64,000 nucleotides of DNA from Naegleria gruberi. Lineage: Eukaryota. Location of the stretch: assembly GCA_000004985.1 (NCBI GenBank), contig GG738895.1; one strand, given 5' to 3'. How positions within the stretch are numbered: the first letter of the stretch is position 1; every line of letters begins with the position of its first letter. Positions 1,476-64,000 of the stretch are shown here, piece by piece. A model generated the notes under the pieces. It saw nothing but the letters and a program-made list of their open reading frames with translations, searched no databases and was not told the origin of the DNA. Position numbers and translations under genes: made by a program.

Positions 1476-4400
1476 ATGTTGAAACTAAGACAACAACTCA
1501 TCAACACTGTCTTAAATTCACATTCTCCGACAGTGGGATTCAATACCTTGTTGTTTAATCATCAAACAACATCATTGGTAGGATCCACTACAACCTCATA
1601 TCGTGCTATTCATAATAATCGTGGTGGTAATAATAACTTTAGAAACAATGATAATGACAATAACAATAGAGGAGAATTTAAACCAAGATTCAACAAGCAA
1701 TATCGATCATCCGATGATGCTACTTCATCTTCAACAACTAACTTTAACAAGAATAGTGAAAATAGACGAGCACCATCTTCATCAAATAATTATTCATCTA
1801 ACAACAGGGCTTCGGATGGTACCAATGGATTCAAACAAAACCGTTTTGAAAAATCCAACAATAACTACCAAAGATCATCATACGACAATAATACTAGATA
1901 CGAAAACAAGTTTAAAAAGTACGATACTAATAATAACAATAGATTTAAACAACAAGGTGAAAGTCGCTTTGAAAAGTCTGATAATAAGTTTAAAAAGTAT
2001 GATGATAATAATGGTGATAACAACAGATTTAAACAACAAGGTGAAAATAGGGTTGAAAAGTCTGGCACTAACTACCAAAGACCTTCATACAATGGTGATA
2101 ACAACACAAGATATGAAAATAAGTTTAAAAAGTATGATGATAATGGTGATAACAACAGATTTAAACAACAAGGTGAAAATACAAGGTTTGAAAAGTATCA
2201 AAGATCATCCAATGAAGATAGAAATAACAACAATAGCTTTAGAAAGTATGACAGAGAAGAAAGGAGAGAAAGAGAGGAATTTAAGCCAAAATTCAAATCC
2301 ACAGTAGTTCCTTTTGATCAATACAAGAAACAAAACAAGACACAATCAAGTGACAAATTTTCAAGTGAATCATCACGTACTAGATCCAAGTCTCCTTATG
2401 GAACACAATCAAGGAATCAACCAAAATATGAAAGAAAGGAAAGATCCAATCCAATCTATGAATATGATGAAGAGATTGATACCCTTTTTGAAGATAATTT
2501 AACACAAAAATCTAGTAAGGGAAGAGAAAACACTCGATTCAAATCATCTATTGAGAATCATGTTGATTCATATATTAGTGGAAAAGAACAAAAACAACCA
2601 AGAAAACAAACCAAGATGGCCTATATTCCTGCAAATGAAAATGTTAGAAATATGATGAAAAAGGAAATGGACAATGATGATTTTGAAGATGATTTCCAAG
2701 ACCTTACAAGTGTTAAAAAGATTGATATGAAGAACGTCGATAAGGATACCAAGAAGAAACCAAGACAAAGAGAAATTAAAGATCCAATGAGTGATGATTT
2801 GAAATGGATTGATGAAGATGAATACATGGCCATTCGTCAAAAGGGAATGAAAAAGATCATGAACAGTAGAAATGATTCACTTTCTAAAGCCTCTTCTCAC
2901 ATCTTATCCCAATCTAGAAATAATGTCACAAAACCACTAAATGTTCCAAGCAATGTCACCTTTGTTATGGATGATTCCAGAAGTTTAACAAGAAACCAAC
3001 CAACAGAAGAAGAAATTGAGGATGATGATGAAGATGTAGTTTTCTATGGAGATGAAGACTTTGAAGAAGATGAAGATTTTGATTTTGAAGAGGATATGGA
3101 AGAAGAGGAAGAAGAAAAACCAAAAAAGAAGGGTTCAAAAAAAGTGAAAAAGGAGCAGGAAGAAGCTCCAAAAATTGATATTCTTCCAGATGCCATGGTT
3201 GGCAAGTATTTGAAACAAATACAAAAAGAAAAGATGTCAAAGAATAGAGAATTTAAGTCTTTGCCTGTTGTGAATGGAGTTGTAAAGGAAATTTTCTCTT
3301 GTGGGTTAGCATCGAAAAGAAGTTTGAAACAAGCTGAGTATCTTCAATACTTTACCAGTGATGAAGTTTCTAAAACTGATGAGGAAGCTCAATCTAGAAA
3401 TGCAATGGCTAACATGTTGGGCGGAAATAGGGTGATTGAAGCACAATTGAAGCGTCAACAAGTTGCCAGAAAGACAAACAAAACTAGTCTTGTCTACAAT
3501 CAACCAGAACTCAGAGCTGACTTGCAAGTGAAAGATGATGTTGTCAATTGGGTATTTAAAAATTACAAGATGAAATATATTGGTTCGATTGGACTTTCTA
3601 AGAAGGATGAAGAATTGCTTGCTAAGGAACTAGAACAAGAAATGCAAGAAGAAAATGAAGAAGAAAATGAAAAAGAAATTCAAGAAAAACAAGAAGAAAA
3701 CCAAGAAGAAAATGAGAATCAACGTCTAGATATTGACAAATTATCAAAGGAAGAGCTGGATGAAATTTTGGAGAAGGAAGAAAATCTCTATGACTTCTAC
3801 CGAAGAAATTTTGAGGATCAAGAAGAAGAGGAAGAAACCCAAGTAGAAAAGAAAGAAAAGAATGAAAAAGAAGAGCCTGAAACCTTGGTTAGAAAGCTCT
3901 ATGATATTTCTAGAATGCTTGAGAAATGCAAAGGAATTCCACAAGTGGCATTTGCAGGAAGATCAAATGTTGGTAAATCATCAATTATCAATGCAATTAC
4001 TGGTAGAAATAACCTCAAAGCATCTGAAAAACCTGGTCAAACAAAGGATTTGAATTTCCACAGATTTGGAAAACACTTTTGTCTGGTAGACATGCCTGGT
4101 TATGGTTTTGCCTTCACCAAGGACAGTTCTGTTACTCAAAAATGGTTGGATCTCATCAGAAATTATTTTGTACAAAGTAGTACTGATCTTAAGGTTGTCT
4201 TTTTATTGATTGATTCGCGTCTAGGACTTAAGAGAAAAGATATGGACATGATTTCATTCTTGGAAGAGAATAATGTTCCATACCAAATTGTTTTCACAAA
4301 ATGTGATTTGATGTATGTTGACGATTTGGCAAGAATGGCATTCAAAACATTCAAGATTGATCCACTCACAAAAGGCATGACATTCAAAAATCATATCAAG

Positions 4401-4556
4401 GATGAGGAAACAGGCGACTTTAGAATGGTTTTCGTGAGTTCCAGATCCAAGACAGGAGTTGCAAGATTAAAGGAGGATATCGTGCTAAGACATGCTAAAT
4501 TCGATGTTGAATCATGGAAAAAGAATGTTAAGAAGAATGTTGTACTATTTGTGTAG
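1476..4556 (+). CDS. EngB/YihA-family ribosome-biogenesis GTPase (GTPBP8-like) with a mitochondrial-presequence-like N-terminus and an ~850-aa low-complexity N-terminal extension
   Basis: The C-terminal domain carries G1 GRSNVGKSS, G3 DMPGYG and G4 TKCD, and aligns along its length with bacterial YihA (AFAGRSNAGKSS...DLPGYGYA...TKADK). The N-terminus (MLKLRQQLINTVLN...) looks like a mitochondrial presequence. It is a single exon. Confidence 0.8.
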   Translation: MLKLRQQLINTVLNSHSPTVGFNTLLFNHQTTSLVGSTTTSYRAIHNNRGGNNNFRNNDNDNNNRGEFKPRFNKQYRSSDDATSSSTTNFNKNSENRRAPSSSNNYSSNNRASDGTNGFKQNRFEKSNNNYQRSSYDNNTRYENKFKKYDTNNNNRFKQQGESRFEKSDNKFKKYDDNNGDNNRFKQQGENRVEKSGTNYQRPSYNGDNNTRYENKFKKYDDNGDNNRFKQQGENTRFEKYQRSSNEDRNNNNSFRKYDREERREREEFKPKFKSTVVPFDQYKKQNKTQSSDKFSSESSRTRSKSPYGTQSRNQPKYERKERSNPIYEYDEEIDTLFEDNLTQKSSKGRENTRFKSSIENHVDSYISGKEQKQPRKQTKMAYIPANENVRNMMKKEMDNDDFEDDFQDLTSVKKIDMKNVDKDTKKKPRQREIKDPMSDDLKWIDEDEYMAIRQKGMKKIMNSRNDSLSKASSHILSQSRNNVTKPLNVPSNVTFVMDDSRSLTRNQPTEEEIEDDDEDVVFYGDEDFEEDEDFDFEEDMEEEEEEKPKKKGSKKVKKEQEEAPKIDILPDAMVGKYLKQIQKEKMSKNREFKSLPVVNGVVKEIFSCGLASKRSLKQAEYLQYFTSDEVSKTDEEAQSRNAMANMLGGNRVIEAQLKRQQVARKTNKTSLVYNQPELRADLQVKDDVVNWVFKNYKMKYIGSIGLSKKDEELLAKELEQEMQEENEEENEKEIQEKQEENQEENENQRLDIDKLSKEELDEILEKEENLYDFYRRNFEDQEEEEETQVEKKEKNEKEEPETLVRKLYDISRMLEKCKGIPQVAFAGRSNVGKSSIINAITGRNNLKASEKPGQTKDLNFHRFGKHFCLVDMPGYGFAFTKDSSVTQKWLDLIRNYFVQSSTDLKVVFLLIDSRLGLKRKDMDMISFLEENNVPYQIVFTKCDLMYVDDLARMAFKTFKIDPLTKGMTFKNHIKDEETGDFRMVFVSSRSKTGVARLKEDIVLRHAKFDVESWKKNVKKNVVLFV
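1860..2230 (+). repeat. Tandem in-frame coding repeats of ~40 aa (~120 nt) in the GTPase N-terminal extension
   Basis: The unit YENKFKKYD(D/T)N(N)GDNNRFKQQGE(N/S)R(F/V)EKS occurs at least 3 times; the nucleotide copies differ only slightly. Confidence 0.6.
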
Positions 4557-7524: not shown

Positions 7525-10500
7525 TTATTTCAAAAATTGTAACTCTGATTCATAAGCCTTTGGTTTGAATCGTTTTGGTAGTTCATTGGTTTTGGTATCC
7601 AATAACTTGGCATTTCCATCAAGTAACATGTTATCAAAGTGGAAAACGTTATCTTCCTTTGTCTTCTTGTTTACAATATCTGTGAATCGGTTAAATTCAA
7701 TCAATGGTTTGGCAATAACAGTTTCCAATCTTGGGGCTTCACCTAGAGCATCAATAATTTCAGAGGCAGAAATACCATTTGAGAAATCTTCAGATAAATG
7801 GCTCAAAACAAATCCAACTTGGTGTTTGGTCATTTCAGGACATACCAAAGTTCTCATTTCTTCTTGCAACAAGCCTTTTTGAACAATACATACGTCAGCA
7901 ACTTGTCTGCACATGACGAAAGCTTCTTCAGAGCTAGAGGTAGATTGTCTCAAACTGTGAATAATACCTTTAGAGTTGAACCAGTTCTCAATGAATGGCA
8001 ATCTCATCTTGATTTGAATAGCAGCATTTGTGTTCATCTTGTTTTGCAAGAAGTGGTTAAAGCATACAGCGTCAAGACCAGCAGCCAAATATTCAAAGAA
8101 ATGGTTGGAAATTCTCAAATCCACGTTATTGTTATCAAATTTGGATTTAAGTTCTGATAAACTTGCAAGAACAAATTTGATATCAGCTCCAGATTCTATT
8201 TCATATTGCTTTTCAGCAAAGAGAGCTCTAATCAACTTTTCTCTAACTCTACGAATGTGTTTCATAAGTAAATATGTGTAAGCCTTTCCTAATGTATTAG
8301 CCATTGATGTGAACAAGCTCTCCCAATTGGTAATAATTTCTTCGTTTTCTTCTCCTTCTTCAAGAGGTCTACTGAAAAGTTGTGGCATGTGTGGAGGATC
8401 GAATAGTGTTTCTTCTCCAGAAGCAGTGGTCTCTCTTGGACTTCTTAATGGACTTCTATTTCTTTGCTTCTCAAAAATAACAGCAGCATCACCAGTAGAA
8501 GTAGGTTTAAGTTGTTTGAGTGCCTTTTCAACAAGAGAGGCATTCTCCTTATCGAGTCCATGGAACATGGCAAGTAATCTACAAATTGCATTAATCCAAT
8601 AAATTAATTGATCATCATTGTGGGCATTCTTGTCTACAACATAATCAAGTGCATGAGAAACATTGGTAGCGAAAAGCTTATTTACACTCTTATTCTTTTC
8701 ATCGTTAATCTTCCACTTGTTAAGACATAGGAACAAAATTTTAACAGGAGTTGGAATTCTGCTATTCAAAACTTCAAAGGTTTGCACGTGTAAAATAGCT
8801 GACTCGACAACAAATCTTTGAACATCTAAAAGTTTGGATTGTTGAATGTAGGTGTCCATCTTTTCTTTAAGAACCTTTGCTTCTTCTTCCATCTTGGCCA
8901 TAGCTTCCTTGAGTACTGTTTCATTTTCACTCTTTTCATTAACTCCATTTTGCAAGTTATTAATTTCTTGGTTGCGCTTTTCAATAATCGAATCCAATTC
9001 ATTCATTGTAGTAACTTTTTGTTCCAGTTCTTGAGATTTTTCTGATAACTCTTGCTCCTTGGATTGAATGTTGTTAACAAGATTTTGTAAATCTTTTTCT
9101 CTAGTTTCAAGTTCTGTCTTTAGAGTTTGAATTTGCTCCTCTTGTTCAGTGACAGCTTGTGATTTTTGTACAAGTTCTTCATCAAGTTTGCTGAGTTTTT
9201 GTTCAAGTAATTCTGCTTCGGCTTGCTTTTCTTGAATCTTGTTATGAGCGTCTTGGAGTTGATTATTGAGATCAGATATTTCCTTTCCTTGTTGTTCAGT
9301 ACTTTCCAAAAGAGTACCTCTTTCTTGTTCGAGATCTCTCTTTTCTTTTTCAAGCTTTTCTAACTTTTCATCCATTTCATATTTCAATCTATTGAGAGCA
9401 TCTTCACTATTGACTTGAAGTCCCAAAAGTTCTCTGAGTTCATCTTGCTTGTTCTTCAACTCTTCGTCCTTTGATGAAATGATTCTGTCTTTTTCAGAAA
9501 TAGTTTTTTCGAAATCAGCAAGTTTTTCATGCAAACTCTCAAATTGCTTATTGAGGAATGATTGTTTGGCTTCTTCAGCGCTAGATGATTCTTCATTATT
9601 ATTGACTAAAGTACCGATCTTTGAGATGATATCTGCAATATTCTTGTTGTACTGTTCTTCTTTTTCTTCAATAACTTTGTTAAGACCTTGGGCCTTTTCG
9701 TCTTGCTCCTTTACTTGTTGTTGCAATTTTTCAACCACTAAATTGCTAGCATCCAACTCAGTGGTTACTCTTTCTTGCTTTTCTTTCAGGGTTTCAATTC
9801 TATTTTCCAGAGAAAGAACAATCTCCTTTGATTTAAATAGATCATTGATAGCTTCATCACGTTCTTGGATGGTTGTGGCCAATTGATTAGATTGTTCTGC
9901 GGAGGCATTCTTGAGTTTAGAAATTTCCTCTTCCAGTTGTTCAATACTTGCTTCTCTTTCGCTCAAAGATGCTTCAGCTCTATACTTGTCTTGGGTTACT
10001 TCGTTGAGTTGAGCTTTAGTAGTGTTGAGGTCATTATTGAGAGAATCAATTTGTTCATTCAAAGACTTAATATCCTTTTCTAAGGAGTCCGATTCTTCTT
10101 TTGCGGATACAAGTTTAGTCTCCAGAGATTCTTTTTCTTGAGTAAGACTTGAAATAATCTCTTCCTTGTGAGAGACTGACTTTGACAACAACATATTTTG
10201 GTGTTGATTGTCAGTAACATCATCTTCAAGTTTGGAGATTGATTCTCTGAGTTGAGCAATAATGATACCGAGATCCTTCTTCTCAACTTCAGCATTTTGA
10301 AGAATTTCAATCTTTTCTGATTCTAATTTTTCAAGTTTTTCAAGAGTTGAATCTTTTTCTTTGGTGATATCTTCAGCCAATTTTTTACTGGTGGCCAGTT
10401 GTTCACCAATTTCCTCCTTTGCTCTTCTTGTTTGTTTCAACTGTTCAGCAATTTCATCTTTCTCTTGATTGGCAATTTTGAGTGATTCTTGTGCCTTGTT

Positions 10501-13500
10501 CAATTCTTGGAGGAGCTTGTTGCCCATTTCTTCCTTTTCATTGATACTGGCCTCAAGAAGAGATTGTTTTTCTTTTTCTAAACTTTCAATCTTTGATTCA
10601 AGATCGATGATTTGACCCTTGTATTGTTCTCCATCTTCATTGGCATTCTTTAACTCTTGTTGAAGACTCTTGATGGTTTCTTCAAGTTGAGATTTTTGAC
10701 TTTCCAATTGGGTAACCTTGTTGCCCATAACTTCCTTTTCATTAAAGCTAGTTTCAAGAAGAGATTGTTTTTCCTTTTCCAAATTTTCAATCTTTGATTG
10801 AAGTTCAGTGATTTGACCCTTGTATTGTTCTCCATCTTCTTTGGCATTCTTGAGTTCTTGTTGGAGACTCTTGATAGTTTCTTCAAGTTGAGATTTTTGG
10901 GTATGAAGATCTGAATTGTCTTTCTCTATTCTAGAGATATTTTCATCCTTTAGGGAAATAATGTGCAACATTTCATCCTTTTGAGAGAGGGTAGAGTCAA
11001 GAAGTGATTGTTTTTCTTTTTCTAAGACTGCAATCTTCTTGTTAAGATCTGAAATTTGGCCTTTGTATTCCTCTCCATCTTCCTTGACTTTGTTAAGCTC
11101 GTCTTGAAGATTTTCAATCAATGTTTCAAGTTGAGCCTTTTGCTCATCTACTTGTTCTTTGTCTTTTTGGACCCTTTCGACCACTTGTTGTATGGTTTCA
11201 ACTTTTTGGTTTAATTCTTGAACCTTATTTTCAGCCAATAAGTGTTTCTTTTGGAGTTCTTCCAATTCTGAGGAGCTTGTTCTTAATTTCTTGGTAAATT
11301 CAAGAATTTCTAAGTCAGCTTTTTCTTTCTCTTGTTCCAATGATTCAAGCTCTTGTTCGAGCTCGTTACGTTCAGTCTTAATACCCTCTAGTTCCTTACC
11401 AAGTGATTCATACTTTTCGGAGAGTTCTGAATGTCTTGTTTGCAAAGATTCGAACCTGGACACTTGTGATGCAATTTCTTCAACTTTTTCCTTAATTTGA
11501 TTCAACAGGTCTTCCTTTTCTTCTGAATGAGCAGTTTCAAGATTCTTCTTTTCGGTCTCCAAGCTTTCTAATTGAATAATGACACCAGATAGTTTTTCGA
11601 CAGTGACATCCTTTTCTTCTCTCTCGGTAGCCAATGCAGACTTTGTAACTGATATTTCAGCCTTTAAACGCTCAATCTCTTTTTCTAATTCATCCTTAGC
11701 TGAAGCTTGTATTTCTATTTCTCTCTTCAAGCTTTTGATTTCCTCCTCATTTTGTTGGAGAAGTTTCAAAAGCTCTTCTTGTTTGCTCTTGAGTTCAATT
11801 TCCTTGTCATGTATGGCTGAGTCCTTTTCAGTAAGGAATGATTGGATAGCGATCAGTTGTTCTTTGAGATTGATGATTTCATTAGTGAGGCCATCCTTTT
11901 GATTAATTAAAAGTTCAATAACACTATCAGCAGAGTCACTATCTGTGCCAACAATCTTTGAAAGCTTACTGACCAAAGAGGTAATTTCATTCTTGTACTT
12001 AGCTTCTTGTTCAGAAAGGTTGGTGTTGAGTGTATCGATATTCTCCTCCTTGTTTTGAAGTTCAGACTTGAGGGCTTCAATTTGCTTCTTGCTTGCCTCA
12101 ACATCTCCATTCAATTCTGCAACTGATGACTCGAGCTTGGCAATAGAAGATTCCATTTCCACTATCTTGTCTTGCTTTTCTCTAATGCTTTGGACTTGCT
12201 CTTCAACTTGAGATTCTAATCCTTGTATGAGTTCTTGTTTGGCATTGATGTCAGATAAATGTTTTTCAATGGCGTCTTGCTTTTCTCTGAGAGTATTCAG
12301 GTAAGAATCATTGCTTTGATCAGTTTCGGATCTGAGCAAAGTAATTTGCTCCAACAATCCTTCCTTTTCCCTTTGGAGGGAACCAATATCTTCCTTTGAT
12401 TTTTCTAAATTGGAAATAACTTCGGTAAGCTCCACCTTGATGGAAGCCAATGATTCATCTAGTGTTTTCTTTTCCTCAACCAACTTATCAATAGAATCTT
12501 GTTTTTCATTGACAGATTTAGACAAAATAAGGGATTGATGTTGATTTTCAGTAACATCATCTTCAAGTTTGGAGATTGATTCTCTGAGTTGAGCAATAAT
12601 GATACCGAGATCCTTCTTCTCAACTTCAGCATTTTGAAGAATTTCAATCTTTTCTGATTCTAATTTTTCAAGTTTTTCAAGGGTTTCAGTCTTCTCCTTG
12701 AGTAAACCTTCATTTTCAGTGGAAATTTGGGAAATTTCTTGTTCAAGATCCTCCTTTGCTCTTCTTGTTTGTTTCAACTGTTCAGCAATTTCATCTTTCT
12801 CTTGATTGGCAATTTTGAGTGATTCTTGTGCCTTGTTCAATTCTTGCAAAAGTCTGTTACCAGCTTCTTCCTTTTCATTGATACTGGCCTCAAGAAGAGA
12901 TTGTTTTTCTTTTTCTAAACTTTCAATCTTTGATTCAAGATCGATGATTTGACCCTTGTATTGTTCTCCATCTTCATTGGCATTCTTTAACTCTTGTTGA
13001 AGACTCTTGATAGTTTCTTCAAGTTGAGATTTGTGACTTTCCAATTGCTCCTTGTCTTGTTCAATTCTATTGATACTATCATCCTTTGAGTTGATGATGC
13101 TATTCAATTCTTGAATCTTATTTTCAGCCAATAAGTGTTTCTTTTGGAGTTCTTCCAATTCTGAGGAGCTTGTTCTTAATTTCTTGGTAAATTCAAGAAT
13201 TTCCAAGTCAGCTTTTTCTTTTTCTTGCTCCAAGGATTCAAGCTCTTGTTCGAGCTCGCTACGAGCATTCTTGATATTCTCCAATTCCGTTTCAAGAGCA
13301 CTATTTGAAGTTCTAAGCTCATTAATCTCAGTATCTTTGTTTTGCATTTGTTCTAGCATGTTATTGAGCTTGTCTACAGTTGTATCTTTCTCTTCTCTTA
13401 TGGTTCCAAGTTGCTCTCTGAGTTCTGAAATTTCTTGTTTCAACTTTTCAATTTGGTCATCCAGGGTAGTATGGTGGTCGAGGGCTTGGGCGAGTTTTTC

Positions 13501-16500
13501 TTGATTGATCTTGAGATCCTTTTCTATTTCGTTCATTCTTTCCTCACGTTGAGCGATACTATTAGATAAAGATTCCTTTTCTTGTGAGGAAGATTCTCTT
13601 AGTAACTTTAAGGACTCTTCTAATTCTTCAATCTTAGTCTCTAGTAAAACTATCGTTTCTTGTTTCTTGGTATTTTCTTGTTCAACGATAATAATCTTCT
13701 CTCCAAGAGTTTGCTTGTCGGATTTTGTTTGAGAAAGCTCTTCGGAAAGAGTATTGTTTTCTTCCTTTACGTGTTTCAATTTCTCTTTGGTTTCTTCCAA
13801 CTCTTTCAACAAGGAACCTTCCTTAAGATCAGAGCTAGAAAGAAGACTGTTCTTCTCTTGAGTAAGGGTTTCAACTTGTTTGTTTAGTGAAATAATTTCC
13901 ACTTCATTCTCCTTAATTTTCTCTGAAAGCTTGGACTTCTCAGAGATATGTTTTTCTAGTTCTCTAGTCTTTTCTTCAATAAGGTTTGTCAGGTCTGTCA
14001 ACTTCTTGTCTGCATCACTTGAGAGAGATTCGAGTTCTGAAATTCTACCTGCTGAGGTTTGCAATTGTGAAGTAGACTCAGCGAGTTGATCTTCTAGCTG
14101 CTTCTTTGCTTCCTCCAATTGTTGCAGTTTGTCAGCAAGTTGATTCTTTTCGGAAAGTAATTCACTAATTTGACTAGAAAGAGTATCAGAGCCTTGACCC
14201 AATCTTTCCAATTCATCCTTAGTTCTTTCTAAACTTTGGCTTGTTTCTTCCAACTTTTGTTTGTATTCTAATACTTGTTTATCCAATTGTTCATGAGCAC
14301 TAATTTCTTTAGAAAGTTCTTGTTCCTTTTGTTGAATAGTTGCAGAAAGTTCTTTTCTCTCCTTTGTCAATAAATCTTCAATGTCGTTCTTTTCTTTTTG
14401 AATCTTTTCAATTCTTTGCAGCAATCCTGAAACCTCTGATGATGTATTTTCTTTATCACTTGTAATAAGTTTTAATTGCTCTTCTAAATTGGAAATATTG
14501 GACAAGGCTCTTTCGAGATCAACCTTGAAAGTATCTCTTTCTTGGACAGTACCTTCGAGTTCTTGTTCCTTGTCCTGTAGCGATTTGGAAACTTGTGCAG
14601 ATTTTTCTTGTTCACTCTTCAGAGATTCTTCAAGGGTAGTAACTCTGGATTTGATTTCTACCAATTCCGTTGCTAGGTTTTTCTTTTCATCGTTAAGTTC
14701 AGAGACCTTTTGTTGTGATTCGGTGAGATTTTGTTTTAGTTCCTCGATAGTGGAATTGAGAGAAGTTATTGTTTTCTCGAGGTCATCTGATTTTTGCTTG
14801 AAATCCTCAATTTGAGATTCAAGCTCTTCATTTTGTTTTCTAACAGATTCGACTTCCTGACTGACTTTGGAAAGTTTCTCATCTAATGACCCATTTTGCA
14901 CCTTCAATGATTCATATTCTTGCAACAAGTTATTCAGCTTTTCCTTATGTTCTGACAATTCTTTGAAGAATGTTTCTTTCTCCTTTTCGGTTTGAGAAAG
15001 AACTTCCTTAGTTCTATTCATTTCATTTTGAAGGTTAATATACAGCGAATCCTTTGTTTCAGAATCATTAAGATTTTGATCTTGCAAATCTTTAAGTTGC
15101 TTCTTAATCGATTCAATCTCATTAAGAGATTTTTCTTTTTCATCACGAGTTTGTTCCAATGTCTTATTAATATTTACAAGTTCTTGTTGTGTATCTTGTA
15201 ATTGCTTTTCTAAAGATAGCTTCTCGGTGGAATGCTGTTCAATAGTTGTATTGTTCTGATTAACAAGATCTTCATATTTTTGGGAAAGGGTGTTATACTC
15301 CTTTTCTTGATTGTCTTTGTTTTCATTTAGACTGGAAATAGTAGCTTCTAACGATGAAATTTGTTGAGTTAAAGAAGAAACCTTATCTTGCAAATCAACT
15401 TTTGCTTTAGTTTCGGCTTCAATCTCGCTCTCTCTGGTCTTTAACTCCTTTCTAAGATTGGATTCCTTTTCAGAAACGTCAGAAAGGTTTGATTCAAGAC
15501 TTGAAATCTTTTCAGACATTTGCTTAACCTCATTGTTGAGTCTTTCCTTCTCTCTATTTGCCTCATCAAGTTGTTGCTCTTTTTGCTTAATATTGTTCAT
15601 CAGTTCTTGTGATAAACTTTCTTGACTTGCCAAGGAAGTAGTAATAAGTTGATTCTTTTCATTCTCGAGTTGAGTAACTTTTTCATTCAGTAACTTGATT
15701 TCACTTTCAAGTTCAACCTTATCCTTTTTGACTTGATCTAATTCTGAATCAATTCTACTGTTAAACTCAACTAACTCCAAATTGGTTTGCTTGATTGCAT
15801 TTAACTTTAGAAGAAGAAGATCTGTCATTTTATGCAACTCTTCTTGAATTTGATCCGGATGAATCTTTTCAAACTCGTTACTCTTGCTATGGTTAATAAA
15901 TTCGTCACTTAATTTGGTGGCTTCTTTAATCTTCTTCTTGAAGTCATTGTCTTCAGTCACTTGAGTCATAGCTTCTTCCAGTTTCTTCTTCAGCTTGTTG
16001 AATTCTTGAATACATGACAACAAAATTTCATGTTCCTTGTTGGTCTTTTGGAGATTATGATTAGTCTTCTCAAGTTGAGTAGTAATTTCTGATTTTTCCT
16101 TCAAAATCTTTTGAATAGATTCGTGATTCTCGTTATCTTCTTTTTCTTTCAACTTCTTCAAGCTTTCAAGTTCAGATCTGATAATCTCAATATCTTTTTC
16201 TTTTGAAGATGCTTCACTTTCATAATGCTTCTTCAAGAATTATAGTGTTTCCATATTTTTTAAAACTTACCTTAAGTCTTGTGAGCTCTGAATTTAACTC
16301 TTCATTTGTATGCTTGAGTTGTTTAACATTTTCTTCGAGATTATGAGATTTATCCTCTGATGCCTTCAACTTTAGAGAAACTGATGAAACCTCCTCTTGT
16401 ATTTCCTCAATACGACCTTCATACTCACGACTAGATTTTTCCTTCTCTGCATTATTTTCCTGAATAATGTCATCCTTTCTGGAAGATTCCTGTTTCAAGT

Positions 16501-17701
16501 TTTCAATACTTTCCTCCAAGGATTTAATTTGTTTTTGAAGTGTTTCCTTTTGTTCTTGCAAGGTATCAGATTCTGCTTCCATCTTTTAACATTATTAGAA
16601 ACATTGTTAAAATGTTGAAACCTACCTCTTCAAGCTTATCTTTTGTTTGCTTGATTTGTTGTTCATACTTTTGTTGGGCTTGTTTCGATTTGAGTTGAAT
16701 CTCAAACAATTTGCTGTCTGCCTCTTGTTGGGCTTCTTGGGCACGATCATATTCTTCCCTAAGATTTTTAGCTTCCTCCTGAATAATTCTCAACTTTTCC
16801 TCGAGTTCATCTCTTTCCTTTGCAATTTGAGATACTATGGATGTCTTGTCATCCCCTTCAAGCTCTTTAATACGTTTCTGAAGGGATTCTATTTGTTCAC
16901 GTAACTCTCCAACAATATTTTCCTCAGCAAGTGATCCTCTGCTGAGTATGAAGGAACCTCCATTTCTAGGTGTTCCATAATCCTGTTAATAATAAACAAA
17001 TATTATAATTTCCAAAATCTATATGTAAACATACATTGTGAGTGGCTTCATCTTCCTCTTCTCCATTATCTCCTCCTGTATATGTACTAACTCCATCAAA
17101 ATCATCATCACTATCAACCAATATATTGATCATCATTTGTTCAATTTAAAAACTTACAGTCCGGGAACATTTTTCAAGCATCTTGAATTGATGACAATTT
17201 TAAGTTTAGCTTTTCCGACAGGTTTTGGGATAACCAAGCTGAGTTCCTTTGTTTGTGTAACTTCCTCACTTTCATTAACAAATTGACCAAGATCAAGTTC
17301 CTCCTTTACCAAAACAGTATCTTTTGATTGGTGTGTTTTGTTATTTGTAACTCTTTCCTCAAGAGTAAGTACTAAATCCTTCTTTTGAAAAACACCCTTC
17401 TTTTTGACAAGTGTACCATTAAACTTGAAAGTAGTATTCCAAGTCACTCTTTCTCTGTCAATTTTGGTGTATGGTGTTTCACCTTTACGTTTCTTACCTC
17501 TCTTCCAATGAACCTATAAACAAATATAAGAAATTCCATTTGATTATTTAAAAAACATACTGCATAAAACACATCTTCATCAGGTGTTGGTTGACGAGAT
17601 AAACTTGAATTTTTAAAATCAAAGAGGTGATCAACAGACAAATTAAATTGGAATTTAACATTTTCCTTTCCACCTCCAAGGAAAGATTTCTTTTTCAACA
17701 T
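7525..17701 (-). CDS. Giant (~3315 aa) coiled-coil protein with an N-terminal NT-C2-like domain and a C-terminal DIL (myosin V/afadin-type) domain; six exons
   Basis: Exons on the minus strand are 17561-17701, 17158-17513, 17036-17110, 16626-16983, 16271-16582 and 7525-16230. Introns are 40-52 nt with GTATGT/GTAAGT/GTAGGT donors, and all phases are consistent. The N-terminus (VKFQFNLSV...VHWKRGKKRKGETPYTKIDRERVTWNTTFKFNGTL...) matches the NT-C2 pattern. The C-terminus (FNHFLQNKMNTNAAIQIKMRLPFIENWF...CRQVADVCIVQKGLL) matches the DIL domain. About 2700 aa of heptad-repeat coiled coil lie between. Confidence 0.8.
10200..11350 (-). repeat. Intragenic near-identical duplicated blocks (copy set 1) within the giant coiled-coil gene
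   Basis: 10206-10703 is nearly identical to 12543-13040 (offset 2337 nt). 11205-11350 is nearly identical to 13105-13262. Units of ~210 nt encoding SQLEETIKSLQQELKNANEDGEQYKGQI..LESKIESLEKEKQSLL recur at least 4 times. Confidence 0.75.
12540..13270 (-). repeat. Intragenic near-identical duplicated blocks (copy set 2) within the giant coiled-coil gene
   Basis: This is the partner of 10200-11350. The antisense ORFs 10080..10310 and 12459..12647 share an identical N-terminus, reflecting the duplication. Confidence 0.75.
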
Positions 17702-53600: not shown

Positions 53601-54047
53601 GGTATTTGAATTCTAGCTGGTGATGCCGGTGACCTAATTTTAATATTATTATTATAAATATATTTTAATATTAAATATATTATATCATCAGATAAATGTT
53701 GAAAATTATAATTATGACAGGAAGAAACAATGTACTGTACATACCCTCCTCATCCCATGTTGTTGTTTGATTGTATTTTTTTTTTAAATGGCTTGTTTGA
53801 AGAGTGAAATGTGATGCATTGTAAATGGAATAATATTAAATATTGACATTATTGTAAAATATGTTGTATTTATTAAATATATTGATAAATACTAATTGTT
53901 ATTTTCACTTTGTGATGATTCTGATAATGAACTTTTCTTGTTCTTTGTAACACAATGTTTGAAATGGAAATCAATTTCATAATTGACCAAAATGTAATTT
54001 GAAATTTAATCAAATTCTATTTCTGAAAAACAATTATTTAAAAAAAA

Positions 54048-54815
54048 ATGGGAGTTTTAGGTAAAAGAGTTTATAGAAAATACAAACAAAAATACATTAA
54101 CAAGTATTTTAAATATTCCTATCAATGTGATTTTCCAAATAGAAAACAAATATTTCAAATACAATCACCTTATCTAACATTTAATGAACAATATTCACCA
54201 TCATCTAAATATCCACAACTATTGACACCTGTCACTAAAACAAGTATTTCAAATTTAAAGTTAACATGTATGAAGAAACCACTCATTCAAATACCTACAT
54301 TTAAAAGAATTATCAATAGATCAATGGAATTATCAGCTCCAGATATAATGCCATTAAAAGAAGAATATAATTATAATATTGTAAAGTTGAATATTAGCAC
54401 AATAGATGATCAACAGTGTGCACAAACAGAATTTAATGGATTTCGTTTAACGAGAGATAAATTAACATCACTAACTTGTAGAAAATGGCATTCAATAATA
54501 ACATTTAATAATACATTTAAAAGTATGGATGGATATCATGTTAGAATTTTCATGACATCATGTACAAGAATGAAATTATTACAAATTAAAAAGACATCAT
54601 ATGCTAACAAGTCACAAATTAAAAAGATTAGAACTATAATGTATCAAGTAATATTAAAATATTTAAGTAAAATGACAATATTAGAATTTGTTAATAGAAT
54701 GGCAATTAAATGTGAAATGAGCAGTGAAATTAGAATGAAATGTGAAAATATTTATCCATTAGAGGATGAAATTTTAATTACAAAGATTAAATTATTAGAA
54801 AAACCTCAACTTTAA
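54048..54815 (+). CDS. Highly divergent ribosomal protein eS1 (RPS3A)-like ORF of 255 aa, either a diverged paralogue or a decaying copy
   Basis: The C-terminal two-thirds aligns with eS1: FNGFRLTRDKLTSLTCRKW...DGYHVRIF...LQIKKTSYANKSQIKKIR...CENIYPLEDEILITKIKLLEKPQ versus human FHGMDLTRDKMCSMVKKW...DGYLLRLF...NQIRKTSYAQHQQVRQIR...[22 protein letters not shown]. The N-terminal third is not recognisable, and the region is extremely AT-rich. Confidence 0.6.
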   Translation: MGVLGKRVYRKYKQKYINKYFKYSYQCDFPNRKQIFQIQSPYLTFNEQYSPSSKYPQLLTPVTKTSISNLKLTCMKKPLIQIPTFKRIINRSMELSAPDIMPLKEEYNYNIVKLNISTIDDQQCAQTEFNGFRLTRDKLTSLTCRKWHSIITFNNTFKSMDGYHVRIFMTSCTRMKLLQIKKTSYANKSQIKKIRTIMYQVILKYLSKMTILEFVNRMAIKCEMSSEIRMKCENIYPLEDEILITKIKLLEKPQL

Positions 54816-54915
54816 CAATTTTTCTATTAATATTTATGTAAATATTAAATAAATAGATAAAAATGTAAAAATTAAAAAATCAATTAAATTAAAAAATTAA
54901 ATAAAAAAATAAAAT

Positions 54916-56067
54916 TTAATTTTCATTTTCTTTTTTATCCTTATTTCCTCCTAAACCAATATATGCAATTGCAACAATACCAACAGTTAATGCAAATAAA
55001 ATTGCAACAAATTTTTTAAATTTTTTAGAATTTTTAGTTTTTTCTTCTCTTCCAACAATGATATCAAGTTGCCAATTATGAAATTCTCTTGTTCTATCAA
55101 TAATTTCTTGATCTTTTGAACCTAAACGATGATACCATTCTTCTAAAGATAATCTATATTGTAACCAATGTAATAAATAATTATTTTCAAAATATTTTGT
55201 AATAACTTCATATTGAGCTCTTGCTATAATTGGTTTTGTTAATTCATTTCTTTGATATAAATCATTTGGTCCACTTTGTCCAATTGCTTTTAATTCTTGA
55301 TAATAAATTGAATTATTTAATTCATCATCATTTATTGTTAAAAATGTATTTTTATAAATTTCTTTAATATTTTCATCTGATAATTTTTCAATATTATTTA
55401 ATTGTAATGAAGGAGATGATTCTATTGTTGATTTTATATTATTAAATTCATTCAATCCAAAATTAATTAAAATTCTTTTAATAAAATTAAAAATATTTAA
55501 ATCTTGATATTTATATAATTCATTTTTAAATAAAACTACTTTTAAAGTAATTTGATTAGAAATTTCACCTTCATCTTGAAGTTTTTCATCAATTGAATAA
55601 ATTTGTGGATATTTTTGTTTTAATACTTTATAATAACTTTGATTTACTATTTGAGTAATTGAATTCCATTTTAAAAATAAATTTTCTTCAGGTTGATTTG
55701 GAAGATTTAAAACTTGATTAAATAATTTATGAGAATATACTTGTTCTTCTACTTGATTTAATATTTCTTGTAATTCATCTCTTGAAAATTTATTTTCATC
55801 ATTATTTAAATTATTATTTAAATTATTTTCATCATTATTTAAATTATTATTATTCAAATTATTATTAGAATGATATAATGATTGATGATAATTAAATGAT
55901 GATAATGTTATTAATTTGAATAATTGATGTTGATTATTCATACTACATGATGTTATTGTTGTTGGAAGAAGAAAATTATTCATTCCGATAGAATTATTCA
56001 TCTTTATAATAGAAGATGAACAATTTCTACTATTACTCTTTGATAATTGTATTACTGCTCTTCTCAT
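54916..56067 (-). CDS. Hypothetical protein with a presequence-like N-terminus, Asn/Leu-rich repeats (LNNNNLNNDEN x2) and a C-terminal transmembrane anchor
   Basis: It is a 383-aa ORF with a C-terminal hydrophobic segment FVAILFALTVGIVAIAYIGL and no recognised domain; the sequence is very AT-rich. Confidence 0.5.
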   Translation of the reverse strand: MRRAVIQLSKSNSRNCSSSIIKMNNSIGMNNFLLPTTITSCSMNNQHQLFKLITLSSFNYHQSLYHSNNNLNNNNLNNDENNLNNNLNNDENKFSRDELQEILNQVEEQVYSHKLFNQVLNLPNQPEENLFLKWNSITQIVNQSYYKVLKQKYPQIYSIDEKLQDEGEISNQITLKVVLFKNELYKYQDLNIFNFIKRILINFGLNEFNNIKSTIESSPSLQLNNIEKLSDENIKEIYKNTFLTINDDELNNSIYYQELKAIGQSGPNDLYQRNELTKPIIARAQYEVITKYFENNYLLHWLQYRLSLEEWYHRLGSKDQEIIDRTREFHNWQLDIIVGREEKTKNSKKFKKFVAILFALTVGIVAIAYIGLGGNKDKKENEN

Positions 56068-61475: not shown

Positions 61476-64000
61476 ATGAATAGGAATAAACCCACTTTTA
61501 ATTCTAGTAGTGGTGGTAGTAGCAGCCCGCCAAATATTAATAACAAACAACAAATTCCACTTTTAATGAAGGAGGCCTCAATAACATTGTTTCCTTCAGC
61601 ATCAACTTCATCATCATCACTACATAATAACAATGATATTAATAATAATAACAATAATAATCAAAAGTCATCCACTTCGACTACTGCTAAGGATCAACAA
61701 GTAACATCATCTTCATTGGCTATTAATAATACTAATAACAATCGAGAACCAATCAACAAACATCTCCAACTACAAATAAATATCAACAATAACAGTATTG
61801 GTGGAAGTGGAGGTGGTGGTCCTAAAACATTCTCTCCCAAACCAAAGATTAATTCATCACCATCATTTCAATATATGATGTCAAAGAGACCTTCATCGGT
61901 TGGAAGTAATAAGAGAACACCCTCATTCAAATCAACAAATTCATCCTCTTCTCTTCTCTCTCCAAGAACAAAGCCTTCATCATTTCCTTCTTCATCTTCT
62001 ACTACAAATACTAATAACTCTTCTACTAGTAATAGTAATAGTAACAGTTATGGATCATCACCCTCATTAAAAACTACTAATATTATTCTAAATACAAGTA
62101 ATAATAATACTACTCCAAATAATCATAATAATTCATCATCATCACTCAATAATTTATTTTCCAATACAAGTAAGCAACAACAACAACAATCAAATGATAA
62201 TACTACTACTAATAATCATCATCATCATTCTAATACACCTAAAAGAGTGTGGTCTAGTTCACAACGTCCACAATTACCTAAAATGTCAAGTATTAATTCT
62301 TCATTATCAACACCAGTTACACCTTCACCTGATTCTCAAATGTTTAAATCTCATTCAAATAGTGGAAGTAATTTATTAAGTAATTCTAATTCAACATCAA
62401 ATTTAAGAAGAGAATTAATTAATAATAGTGGAAGTAGAAGAAATACATTTAGTAGTTATTCATTAAATCCATCTCCAATACCTAAATTAGGACAATTAAA
62501 TACTATAATTGGTGTATCAAGTGCAACTAATAATTCGAGCCAAAGTTCATTAACAAGTGTTACTTCTACATATAGTATTAATATTGCTTTAAATAATTCA
62601 TCATCTACTACAAGTTTATTATCAAATGGATATAATGGAGCATCTACATCTTCTTTAAATAATACAGTTACAAATAATAATAATAATATAAATATTAAAT
62701 CTGATAATATTATAGTCAATAATAATAATAATAATTCTAATACAGGAAATACAATTACTAATAATAATACAGTTAATATTAATAATAATTCAACTAAATC
62801 TGATAATAATCATCCAATATTAACAGTTACTAATAATAATAATAATAATAATCAAATTATTTTAAATAATTCAAATAATTCAACAATTCCATTTAATAGA
62901 AAAAATGCAATTACACAAAATCCAGTATTTAGTACAACATCATTAAGTATTAATAATAATACAAGTAATACAAATAATACTAATAATACTAATAATACTA
63001 ATAATATTTCCAATAATAATGGAAATAATCAATCGACAAGCACAGTAACAAATAATATAAATAATAACATAAATAATTCTTCTAAATCTAATAATACTTC
63101 AAAATCAATAACATCAAATAATAATTCTACTTTTAATTCTACTTCCAATAATATAAATAATTCCAATAATAGTAATAACTCATCCAGTAACTCATCTAAT
63201 AATTCTTCTAATAATTCTAATAATAATAATAACAAATTAATTTCAACATTAAATTTAAACAATTTAAATTTATCTATTAGTAGTGTACCATCATCAGCAA
63301 GATCATTTGCATCACCACCACCCTCTAGTCATATTTCACCTAAATCTAGAATTGGACAAAATTATACAATTTATGATCATAAAAATAATTCATTATCATT
63401 AACTTGTAGTAGTAATAGATCAAGTATAGAAAATGATTCATTAGAAATACAAAAAGGACCAATTCCATCAAACAAATTTCCACATCAAATTTCACCACCT
63501 CAATCACCTACTCTAAGTAATAATACAAGTTTATTATCTTTAAATTCTTCAATAGATTCTTTTAAACCTAAAAAGGGTGGAAATACTCCAAATATAGTAA
63601 ATCAATTTAATGAAAATATATTTAAATCAAATCATTCTATTAACACTCCAATGAAAGGTAAAAATAAAATGGATCAAAATTTACTTTCAACAAGTACACA
63701 ATCAGATAAAGAAGAAGAAAGAGCTAAAATTCAAGAAGAAATTAAACAAATTTCAGATGAATTAAAAAAACAAGACGCCATTACTTTATTAGATCAAAAT
63801 GATAAACAAATTATAACAAGTATAATATCAAAATCTAATACTACTTCTACTAATAATAATATAAATGGTAATATAAATGGTAATATGAATATAAATGGTA
63901 ATAATAATGAAAATGAAGATGTACTTAAATATAATTTTTATAAAATGTTAAAATTAAATCTTCAAGAAGAAGAAGAAGAAGATTTATTTAATGAAATTAT
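61476..64000 (+). CDS. Large Asn/Ser/Thr-rich low-complexity protein; 5' complete, 3' end beyond the window (not in the ORF track because no stop is reached)
   Basis: The ATG at 61476 is followed by >840 codons read open by eye to the window end, with homopolymeric N/S/T runs. The C-terminal portion in view turns charged and helical (DKEEERAKIQEEIKQISDELKKQDAITLLDQ). Confidence 0.55.
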   Translation, partial: MNRNKPTFNSSSGGSSSPPNINNKQQIPLLMKEASITLFPSASTSSSSLHNNNDINNNNNNNQKSSTSTTAKDQQVTSSSLAINNTNNNREPINKHLQLQININNNSIGGSGGGGPKTFSPKPKINSSPSFQYMMSKRPSSVGSNKRTPSFKSTNSSSSLLSPRTKPSSFPSSSSTTNTNNSSTSNSNSNSYGSSPSLKTTNIILNTSNNNTTPNNHNNSSSSLNNLFSNTSKQQQQQSNDNTTTNNHHHHSNTPKRVWSSSQRPQLPKMSSINSSLSTPVTPSPDSQMFKSHSNSGSNLLSNSNSTSNLRRELINNSGSRRNTFSSYSLNPSPIPKLGQLNTIIGVSSATNNSSQSSLTSVTSTYSINIALNNSSSTTSLLSNGYNGASTSSLNNTVTNNNNNINIKSDNIIVNNNNNNSNTGNTITNNNTVNINNNSTKSDNNHPILTVTNNNNNNNQIILNNSNNSTIPFNRKNAITQNPVFSTTSLSINNNTSNTNNTNNTNNTNNISNNNGNNQSTSTVTNNINNNINNSSKSNNTSKSITSNNNSTFNSTSNNINNSNNSNNSSSNSSNNSSNNSNNNNNKLISTLNLNNLNLSISSVPSSARSFASPPPSSHISPKSRIGQNYTIYDHKNNSLSLTCSSNRSSIENDSLEIQKGPIPSNKFPHQISPPQSPTLSNNTSLLSLNSSIDSFKPKKGGNTPNIVNQFNENIFKSNHSINTPMKGKNKMDQNLLSTSTQSDKEEERAKIQEEIKQISDELKKQDAITLLDQNDKQIITSIISKSNTTSTNNNINGNINGNMNINGNNNENEDVLKYNFYKMLKLNLQEEEEEDLFNEI

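What the first reader, a model, noticed from the sequence alone, without database searches (positions are those of the whole stretch)
10200..13270. Near-identical ~0.5-kb segments duplicated 2337 nt apart inside the giant coding exon, plus 4 or more copies of a ~70-aa unit
Blocks 10206-10703 and 12543-13040 are almost base-identical, as are 11205-11350 and 13105-13262. The unit SQLEETIKSLQQELKNANEDGEQYKGQI..LESKIESLEKEKQSLL recurs several times. Identity at synonymous sites implies very recent duplication or ongoing gene conversion. Both are sources of length polymorphism, and assembly collapse or expansion is a real risk here.
Basis: seen in the sequence. Interest (0 to 1): 0.5.

Follow-up and report, generated by a model that had tools for sequence, protein, structure and literature searches.

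The report
Repeat modules in giant coiled-coil gene
Two stretches of a very long rod-shaped Naegleria gruberi protein gene are near-copies of each other, most likely because an old internal duplication keeps being partly overwritten by gene conversion; this is real but ordinary.

Summary
The window is Naegleria gruberi NEG-M. The repeats lie on the minus strand, in the 8.7-kb last exon of a six-exon gene (17701..7525, 3315 aa). The protein has an N-terminal NT-C2 domain, about 2,650 aa of coiled coil, and a myosin-V-type cargo-binding tail, but no motor.

Block 10198-10710 matches 12535-13047 at an offset of exactly 2337 nt, but the match is a mosaic. Runs of 134, 98 and 147 nt are perfectly identical. 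They are separated by a 67-nt patch (48% identity) and an 18-nt patch.

The second pair is really 11209-11367 versus 13102-13260 (offset 1893 nt, 95%). There are exactly four copies of a 67-aa unit, one of them an 81-aa variant.

The sequences flanking the identical blocks are still each other's best match in the whole rod, at about 25% amino-acid identity. In the 18-nt patch, unit U3 follows its tandem neighbour U2 rather than its near-twin in the other module (Fisher p = 3e-6). Block A is significantly older than block U-B.

I read this as an old tandem duplication of a ~600-aa module that is patchily homogenised by intragenic gene conversion, plus unit amplification by unequal exchange. It is a known kind of event and of low interest. 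Length polymorphism and assembly accuracy could not be tested.

The parts
7525..17701 (-). Whole gene: six exons (17701-17561, 17513-17158, 17110-17035, 16982-16626, 16582-16271, 16230-7525 including the stop codon) and five GT..AG introns of 40-52 nt. It encodes 3315 aa.
   Evidence: Manual splicing gives one open frame. The organism is Naegleria gruberi NEG-M, from exact matches of 7 neighbouring proteins.
17172..17668 (-). NT-C2 domain (full-protein aa 12-161, interrupted by intron 1).
   Evidence: Pfam PF10358 scores 50.9 bits against a cut-off of 25.2.
7528..8832 (-). C-terminal myosin-V-type globular tail (cargo-binding) domain containing the DIL motif.
   Evidence: Pfam DIL scores 41.7 bits against a cut-off of 24. 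The family profile matches myosin V/XI tail domains in the PDB at E ~1e-23. The AlphaFold model has pLDDT 82 and pTM 0.85. The 36 best Foldseek hits in the PDB are all myosin V/XI/Myo2/Myo4 tail domains.
11707..13581 (-). Ancient super-module I (ORF aa ~886-1510). Boundaries are approximate.
   Evidence: Its flanks are the best match in the whole rod to the corresponding flanks of super-module II.
9367..11784 (-). Ancient super-module II (ORF aa ~1485-2290). Boundaries are approximate.
13102..13260 (-). Block A, copy I (ORF aa 993-1045).
   Evidence: 95.0% identical to 11209-11367; dS 0.25, dN 0.015.
11209..11367 (-). Block A, copy II (ORF aa 1624-1676).
12535..13047 (-). Block U-B, copy I: 6 codons, then unit U_I (12829-13029), then segment B (ORF aa 1064-1234).
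   Evidence: Matches 10198-10710 at offset 2337 nt.
10198..10710 (-). Block U-B, copy II: the tail of U2, then unit U3 (10492-10692), then segment B (ORF aa 1843-2013).
   Evidence: The perfect runs are 10211-10344, 10412-10509 and 10528-10674.
10345..10413 (-). Divergent 23-codon patch in copy II. Its partner in copy I is 12682-12750.
   Evidence: 47.8% nt identity and 5 of 23 aa identical, with equal length in both copies. No donor sequence exists elsewhere in the window.
10510..10527 (-). 18-nt mini-patch in U3. Its partner in copy I is 12847-12864.
   Evidence: There are 9 differences from U_I. U3 equals U2 at 7 of 9 informative sites here, whereas U3 equals U_I at 40 of 41 informative sites elsewhere (Fisher p = 2.8e-6; permutation p = 4e-5).
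10693..10893 (-). Unit U2 (ORF aa 1782-1848), the tandem neighbour of U3.
   Evidence: TRF finds period 201, 1.9 copies, 88% matches. HMM domain score 117 bits.
10894..11136 (-). Unit U1' (ORF aa 1701-1781), a diverged 81-aa variant of the unit.
   Evidence: HMM domain score 111.7 bits. It is 65-66% identical at nt level to the other units.

Best explanation
The near-identical segments belong to the coiled-coil rod of a giant motor-less tether protein of Naegleria gruberi. The protein has an NT-C2 membrane-binding head, about 0.4 um of coiled coil, and a myosin-V-type cargo-binding tail.

I propose four steps.

1. An old in-frame tandem duplication copied a module of about 600 aa (~1.8 kb). 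Most of the two copies have since diverged to about 25% amino-acid identity and about 45% nt identity.
2. In copy II, unequal exchange or replication slippage amplified a 67-aa unit to three copies. The unit lengths of 67 and 81 aa differ by exactly two heptads.
3. Non-reciprocal homologous exchange between the two copies (intragenic ectopic gene conversion) then overwrote parts of one copy with the other. Block A was overwritten earlier and is now 95% identical, with mostly synonymous changes. Block U-B was overwritten very recently, with 4 differences in 428 nt.
4. Conversion tracts were short or interrupted. A 23-codon island kept its old divergence, and an 18-nt tract in U3 carries the sequence of its tandem neighbour U2.

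Status of the steps: the mosaic, the age difference, the ancient flanking homology and the U2-like tract are shown here. The mechanism (conversion and unequal exchange), its direction and its timing are inferred. The functional consequence is also inferred: the rod lengthens by about 10 nm per unit, and any partner-binding segment within the modules is duplicated.
For: - Repeat geometry and identities.
- The differences cluster: the longest perfect run has p ~1e-5, and the sum of the three longest runs was never reached in 1e5 permutations.
- Phylogenetic incongruence within the unit: Fisher p = 2.8e-6.
- Block A is older than block U-B: 8/159 vs 4/428 nt differences, p = 0.004; synonymous differences, p = 0.003.
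- Block A shows purifying selection since its homogenisation: dN/dS ~0.06.
- Ancient collinear homology lies outside the identical blocks. Smith-Waterman z-scores are 10.5 and 12.3, against 0.9-7.0 for control rod segments. The partner flank ranks first among 85 and among 111 sliding windows across the rod. The diagonals at offsets 592 and 778 aa are among the best non-trivial diagonals in the protein.
- Positional and sequence homologues disagree: U_I is collinear with U1' at offset 631 aa (65% nt) and with U3 at offset 779 aa.
- All offsets are multiples of 3 and the ORF is intact.
- The Willaertia magna homologue with the same architecture is only 1730 aa and has no recognisable unit. This fits rod expansion in the Naegleria lineage.
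Against: - No second species or strain could be examined, so the classical test for concerted evolution was not done. That test asks whether paralogous blocks cluster by species rather than by position.
- With only two long copies, the direction and number of conversion events cannot be resolved.
- The ancient flanking homology rests on weak similarity (~25% identity) in low-complexity coiled coil. One control pair reached z = 7.
- The 23-codon patch could instead have been imported from a paralogue elsewhere in the genome, which I could not search.
- No raw reads were checked, so the assembly is taken at face value.
Confidence: 0.68

Rival explanations
1. One or two recent segmental duplications (copy-and-paste of A and of U-B) occurred within the exon, with no continuing conversion. 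The divergent patches arose later through local multi-nucleotide mutation or small replacement events.
For: Runs of 134, 98 and 147 nt are 100% identical, with only 4 scattered differences. No homologue containing these modules was found in any database searched. The Willaertia homologue lacks the units.
Against: - The copies sit at collinear positions within anciently homologous flanks. A 'paste' into the homologous position is in effect a conversion.
- Block A and block U-B differ in age.
- Thirty-six changes in 67 nt with preserved length and heptad pattern are unlikely to be new mutations. The patch is about as diverged as the old flanks.
- The mini-patch matches U2.
Confidence: 0.17
2. 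The duplication is an assembly artefact. The repeat structure (copy number of modules or units) would be mis-built, for example by merging allelic haplotypes or mis-joining reads within repeats.
For: The repeats are 0.5 kb long at ~99% identity outside the patches. From my own knowledge, N. gruberi NEG-M is heterozygous. My 3315-aa gene model is not in the protein collection although the neighbouring proteins are.
Against: - One uninterrupted 2903-codon frame runs through both copies and through the 1.5 kb of unique sequence between them.
- The copies have different internal structure (1 vs 3 units) and diagnostic divergent patches.
- There are no Ns.
- The assembly is Sanger-based, and from my own knowledge Sanger reads are longer than any perfect run.
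Confidence: 0.08
3. Selection alone keeps the blocks identical, acting on the protein, codon usage or an RNA feature, without any recombination.
For: Block A shows strong purifying selection (dN/dS ~0.06).
Against: Protein-level selection does not preserve synonymous sites. Only 2 synonymous differences occur at ~83 synonymous sites in U-B, whereas dS is 0.7 or more between the other unit pairs in the same gene, and the flanks are saturated. The boundaries between the 100% and ~48% identity stretches are abrupt.
Confidence: 0.03

Closest known systems
Intragenic repeats homogenised by gene conversion or unequal crossing-over (concerted evolution of internal repeats). From my own knowledge, examples include the repeat blocks of streptococcal M proteins (coiled coils that vary in size through intragenic recombination), the near-identical triplicated super-repeat region of human nebulin, and abalone VERL repeats. 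PMC2704960 turned up but I did not read it.
   Same: In-frame repeats inside one coding exon; identity at synonymous sites; mosaic tracts; variation in unit copy number between the paralogous modules.
   Different: Here there are only two long modules, separated by 1.5 kb of unique rod sequence, plus a short array of 2-3 units. No population or cross-species data exist, so concerted evolution is inferred from a single sequence.
Myosin V / XI globular tail domain (DIL) proteins
   Same: The C-terminal ~435 aa have the myosin-V cargo-binding tail fold and the DIL motif, preceded by a dimerising coiled coil.
   Different: No myosin motor domain or IQ region was found in the gene. The N-terminus is an NT-C2 domain, and the coiled coil is about 2,650 aa, far longer than in myosin V.
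NT-C2 family proteins (EHBP1, EEIG1, plant PMI1/RPG)
   Same: N-terminal NT-C2 domain followed by coiled coil. RPG and EHBP1 are described as coiled-coil or adaptor proteins with an NT-C2 domain (titles and abstracts).
   Different: There is no CH or bMERB domain, and the C-terminus is a myosin-V-type tail. Homologues with the same architecture were seen only in Willaertia magna (KAL9645710.1) and in unnamed environmental sequences.

Membership tests
Tandem / segmental intragenic repeat | Two or more copies with significant nucleotide similarity, in frame, within one ORF. | tested here: met
   blastn E = 0 for the main pair. TRF finds period 201, 1.9 copies. All offsets are multiples of 3.
Gene conversion / concerted evolution of paralogous segments | Mosaic identity: tracts of near-identity with sharp borders inside otherwise diverged paralogous sequence. 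| tested here: met
   Perfect runs of 134, 98 and 147 nt lie between stretches at ~48% identity, and the flanks are 40-46% identical.
Gene conversion / concerted evolution of paralogous segments | Phylogenetic incongruence along the alignment: different nearest relatives in adjacent tracts. | tested here: met
   U3 equals U_I at 40 of 41 informative sites outside the mini-patch, and equals U2 at 7 of 9 inside it (Fisher p = 2.8e-6).
Gene conversion / concerted evolution of paralogous segments | Paralogous copies within a species are more alike than orthologous copies between species. | not testable with these tools
   No orthologue carrying the modules could be retrieved. The Willaertia homologue lacks recognisable units.
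NT-C2 domain proteins (Pfam PF10358) | The N-terminal domain scores above the Pfam gathering threshold. | tested here: met
   50.9 bits against 25.2, residues 12-161.
Myosin V-type globular tail / DIL (Pfam PF01843) | DIL motif above threshold, plus the full tail-domain fold. | tested here: met
   DIL scores 41.7 bits against 24. The profile matches PDB myosin V/XI tail domains at E ~1e-23 over ~285 positions. The 36 best Foldseek hits are all such tail domains, with TM-scores mostly 0.45-0.66 (0.36-0.49 for three Myo4p chains).
Class V / XI myosin | N-terminal myosin motor domain and IQ neck. | tested here: not met
   Pfam scans of the 2903-aa ORF and of the spliced N-terminus show no myosin head or IQ motif. 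The protein is therefore not a myosin.
Assembly artefact | Copies that are 100% identical, border gaps, or break the reading frame. | tested here: not met
   The copies carry diagnostic differences, the window has no Ns, and one continuous ORF runs through both. Read-level support was not testable.

The most novel reading that the evidence does not exclude
NT-C2 / giant coiled coil / myosin-V-tail proteins may be a heterolobosean family of motor-less tethers about 0.2-0.4 um long, whose rod length evolves quickly by module duplication. The N. gruberi protein has 3315 aa against 1730 aa in Willaertia magna. Under this reading, the blocks kept near-identical (A, U, B) are duplicated docking sites for a partner. 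Conversion would then be tolerated or favoured because both sites must stay compatible with the same ligand.
Probability: 0.12. Interest if true: 0.4.

Novelty: new member of a known kind. Interest (0 to 1): 0.22.

Why it matters
Mostly this is housekeeping. It flags a locus where gene models, read mapping and length estimates in Naegleria gruberi need care, and where alleles or strains may differ in length. It is also a compact, single-sequence example of patchy intragenic gene conversion in a coiled-coil rod. The host gene is mildly interesting in its own right. It is an apparently unstudied motor-less protein that joins a membrane-binding NT-C2 head to a myosin-V-type cargo-binding tail through about 0.4 um of coiled coil. 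My gene model is not present in the protein collection searched.

Tried and rejected
- Three word-index protein searches found nothing, not even the Willaertia homologue that shares an 11-residue word. The queries were the C-terminal domain, the N-terminal 310 aa and module II. That tool is evidently blind to this family here, so 'no hit' there is not evidence of absence.
- An exact look-up of my 3315-aa model found nothing in the collection.
- A contig look-up through the neighbouring protein P0001, meant to reach other assemblies or strains, found nothing on record.
- A metagenome scan with U3+B found no relative.
- A search for a donor of either version of the 23-codon patch within the 64-kb window found only chance matches of 16 nt or less, of which at most 13 nt were exact.
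- I tried to map modules I and II one-to-one onto the Willaertia protein. The coiled-coil alignments are too loose to say which module is ancestral.
- I checked whether the divergent patch is a compensated frameshift. It is not: the alternative frames do not match between copies and a gapped nt alignment stays poor.
- I initially considered a prokaryotic or ciliate origin. This was rejected by GT..AG introns of 40-52 nt, the standard genetic code, and exact matches to N. gruberi proteins.
Full report
**Origin and gene.** Seven proteins encoded elsewhere in the window are exact matches to Naegleria gruberi NEG-M proteins on a 333,733-bp contig. The finding lies in a 2903-codon ORF on the minus strand, 7525..16236. 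Reading upstream shows five GT..AG introns of 40-52 nt. Splicing them out gives one open frame of 3315 aa from the ATG at 17701.

The N-terminus is an NT-C2 domain (Pfam 50.9 bits, cut-off 25.2). The C-terminal 435 aa carry a DIL motif (41.7 bits, cut-off 24). A profile of this domain family matches myosin V/XI globular tail domains in the PDB at E ~1e-23 over ~285 positions. An AlphaFold model (pLDDT 82, pTM 0.85) finds only myosin V/XI/Myo2/Myo4 tail domains among its 36 best PDB matches.

Between the two domains lie about 2,650 aa that Pfam matches only weakly, to coiled-coil families. No myosin motor is present. At 0.1485 nm per residue the rod would be about 0.4 um long, and each 67-aa unit would add about 10 nm (the rise per residue is established knowledge).

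**Checking the observation.** Self-comparison confirms the repeats:
- 10198-10710 vs 12535-13047, offset 2337 nt;
- 10997-11403 vs 12890-13296, offset 1893 nt;
- a 201-nt tandem repeat at 10516-10899.

In protein terms there are two modules (numbering is ORF aa; full-protein index = ORF index + 412):
- Module I is A (993-1045), linker, one unit U_I (1070-1136), then B (to 1234).
- Module II is A (1624-1676), spacer, U1' (1701-1781, an 81-aa variant), U2 (1782-1848), U3 (1849-1915), then B (to 2013).

An HMM of the unit finds exactly these four copies and nothing else. Those for the second pair are slightly off and of unequal length; the true pair is 11209-11367 vs 13102-13260 at 95.0%.

**The identity is a mosaic.** Of the 49 differences in the 513-nt pair:
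- 36 lie in a 67-nt patch at 10345-10411 (47.8% identity over the 69-nt codon block 10345-10413; 23 codons; equal length in both copies; 5 of 23 aa identical);
- 9 lie in an 18-nt mini-patch at 10510-10527;
- only 4 lie elsewhere.

This leaves perfect runs of 134, 98 and 147 nt. Random placement of 49 differences gives a run that long with p ~1e-5. The patch is not a compensated frameshift and has no donor within the window.

**Evidence on history.**

(a) Age heterogeneity. Block A has 8 differences in 159 nt (dS 0.25, dN 0.015). U-B outside the patches has 4 in 428 nt (p = 0.004). U2 versus U3 has dS ~0.7, and U1' versus the other units is 65-66% identical at nt level.

(b) Ancient flanking homology. 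The segments just upstream of A and just downstream of B in the two modules have Smith-Waterman z-scores of 10.5 and 12.3. Control pairs of rod segments score 0.9-7.0. When each module-I flank is slid against the whole rod, the corresponding module-II flank ranks first (of 85 and of 111 windows). Diagonals at offsets 592 and 778 aa are among the strongest non-trivial diagonals in the protein. The rod therefore contains an old tandem duplication of about 600 aa (roughly ORF aa 886-1510 and 1485-2290). Inside it, only the central blocks are near-identical.

(c) Conflicting collinearity. From the A side (offset 631 aa), U_I is collinear with the diverged U1'. From the B side (offset 779 aa), it is collinear with the near-identical U3.

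(d) Incongruence within the unit. U3 equals U_I at 40 of 41 informative sites outside the mini-patch, but equals its tandem neighbour U2 at 7 of 9 inside it (Fisher p = 2.8e-6; run-permutation p = 4e-5).

Together these results fit patchy, repeated, non-reciprocal exchange between old paralogous modules and between tandem units. That means gene conversion, plus unequal exchange for the unit copy number. They do not fit one recent duplication.

**Structural note (crude).** The unit lengths of 67 and 81 aa are both 4 modulo 7 and differ by exactly two heptads. A simple hydrophobic-position scan shows the heptad frame stepping by +4 at each unit (frames 4, 1, 5). Each unit may therefore carry one stutter-like discontinuity, perhaps at the glycine-containing motif EDGEQYKGQI. 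This is inference only.

**Comparison with relatives.** A full HMMER scan of 1.84 billion representative proteins gave 46 hits. The best is Willaertia magna KAL9645710.1 (1730 aa). It has the same NT-C2 / coiled coil / tail architecture (50% identity in the NT-C2 region) but no recognisable unit. The Naegleria lovaniensis and N. fowleri hits are shorter proteins at 28-31% identity, with different lengths and source names (one a calponin-homology protein). I take them to be paralogues, although their architecture was not examined.

Neither the N. gruberi protein itself nor any close orthologue was returned by any search. The cross-species test of concerted evolution could therefore not be done. 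The rod is about twice as long in N. gruberi as in Willaertia. This is consistent with expansion by internal duplication, but the coiled-coil alignments are too loose to assign modules.

**Assembly.** There are no Ns and one frame runs through everything. The copies differ in structure and carry diagnostic patches. The NEG-M assembly is Sanger-based (PMC9928731, Table 1). These points make an artefact unlikely, but no reads were examined.

**Verdict.** The claims about polymorphism and assembly risk remain untested. This is an ordinary evolutionary process in a new locus, of low interest. The host gene's domain architecture is a modest curiosity.

Noticed in passing
window 7525-17701 (minus strand): The host gene encodes an NT-C2 head, ~2,650 aa of coiled coil and a myosin-V-type cargo-binding tail, with no motor. 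My 3315-aa model is absent from the 15-billion-protein collection although seven neighbouring proteins are present. The gene may be unannotated or modelled differently in the NEG-M annotation.
   Followed up: partly
P0008 (Willaertia magna KAL9645710.1): This homologue has the same three-part architecture but is only 1730 aa long and has no 67-aa units. Rod length therefore differs about two-fold between the two vahlkampfiid genera.
   Followed up: partly
window 1908-2196 (plus strand): There is a second in-frame repeat in a different gene (ORF 1476..4556, 1026 aa, with a C-terminal MMR_HSR1 GTPase domain). TRF reports period 84 at 1908-2064, and 1979-2061 matches 2114-2196 at 90.7%.
   Followed up: no
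window 54001-56000 and 62001-64000: GC content drops sharply to 0.20-0.22, against ~0.32 elsewhere. A 9-nt microsatellite (TAATAATAC, 5.9 copies) lies at 62954-63006.
   Followed up: no
window 10492-11136 and 12829-13029: The unit lengths of 67 and 81 aa are both 4 modulo 7 and differ by two heptads. A crude scan shows the heptad frame stepping by +4 per unit, suggesting one stutter per unit.
   Followed up: partly
tool behaviour: The word-index protein search returned no hits for three queries from this gene. The full HMMER scan, in contrast, found a homologue sharing an 11-residue exact word. Negative results from the word-index tool are therefore not informative for this family.
   Followed up: yes
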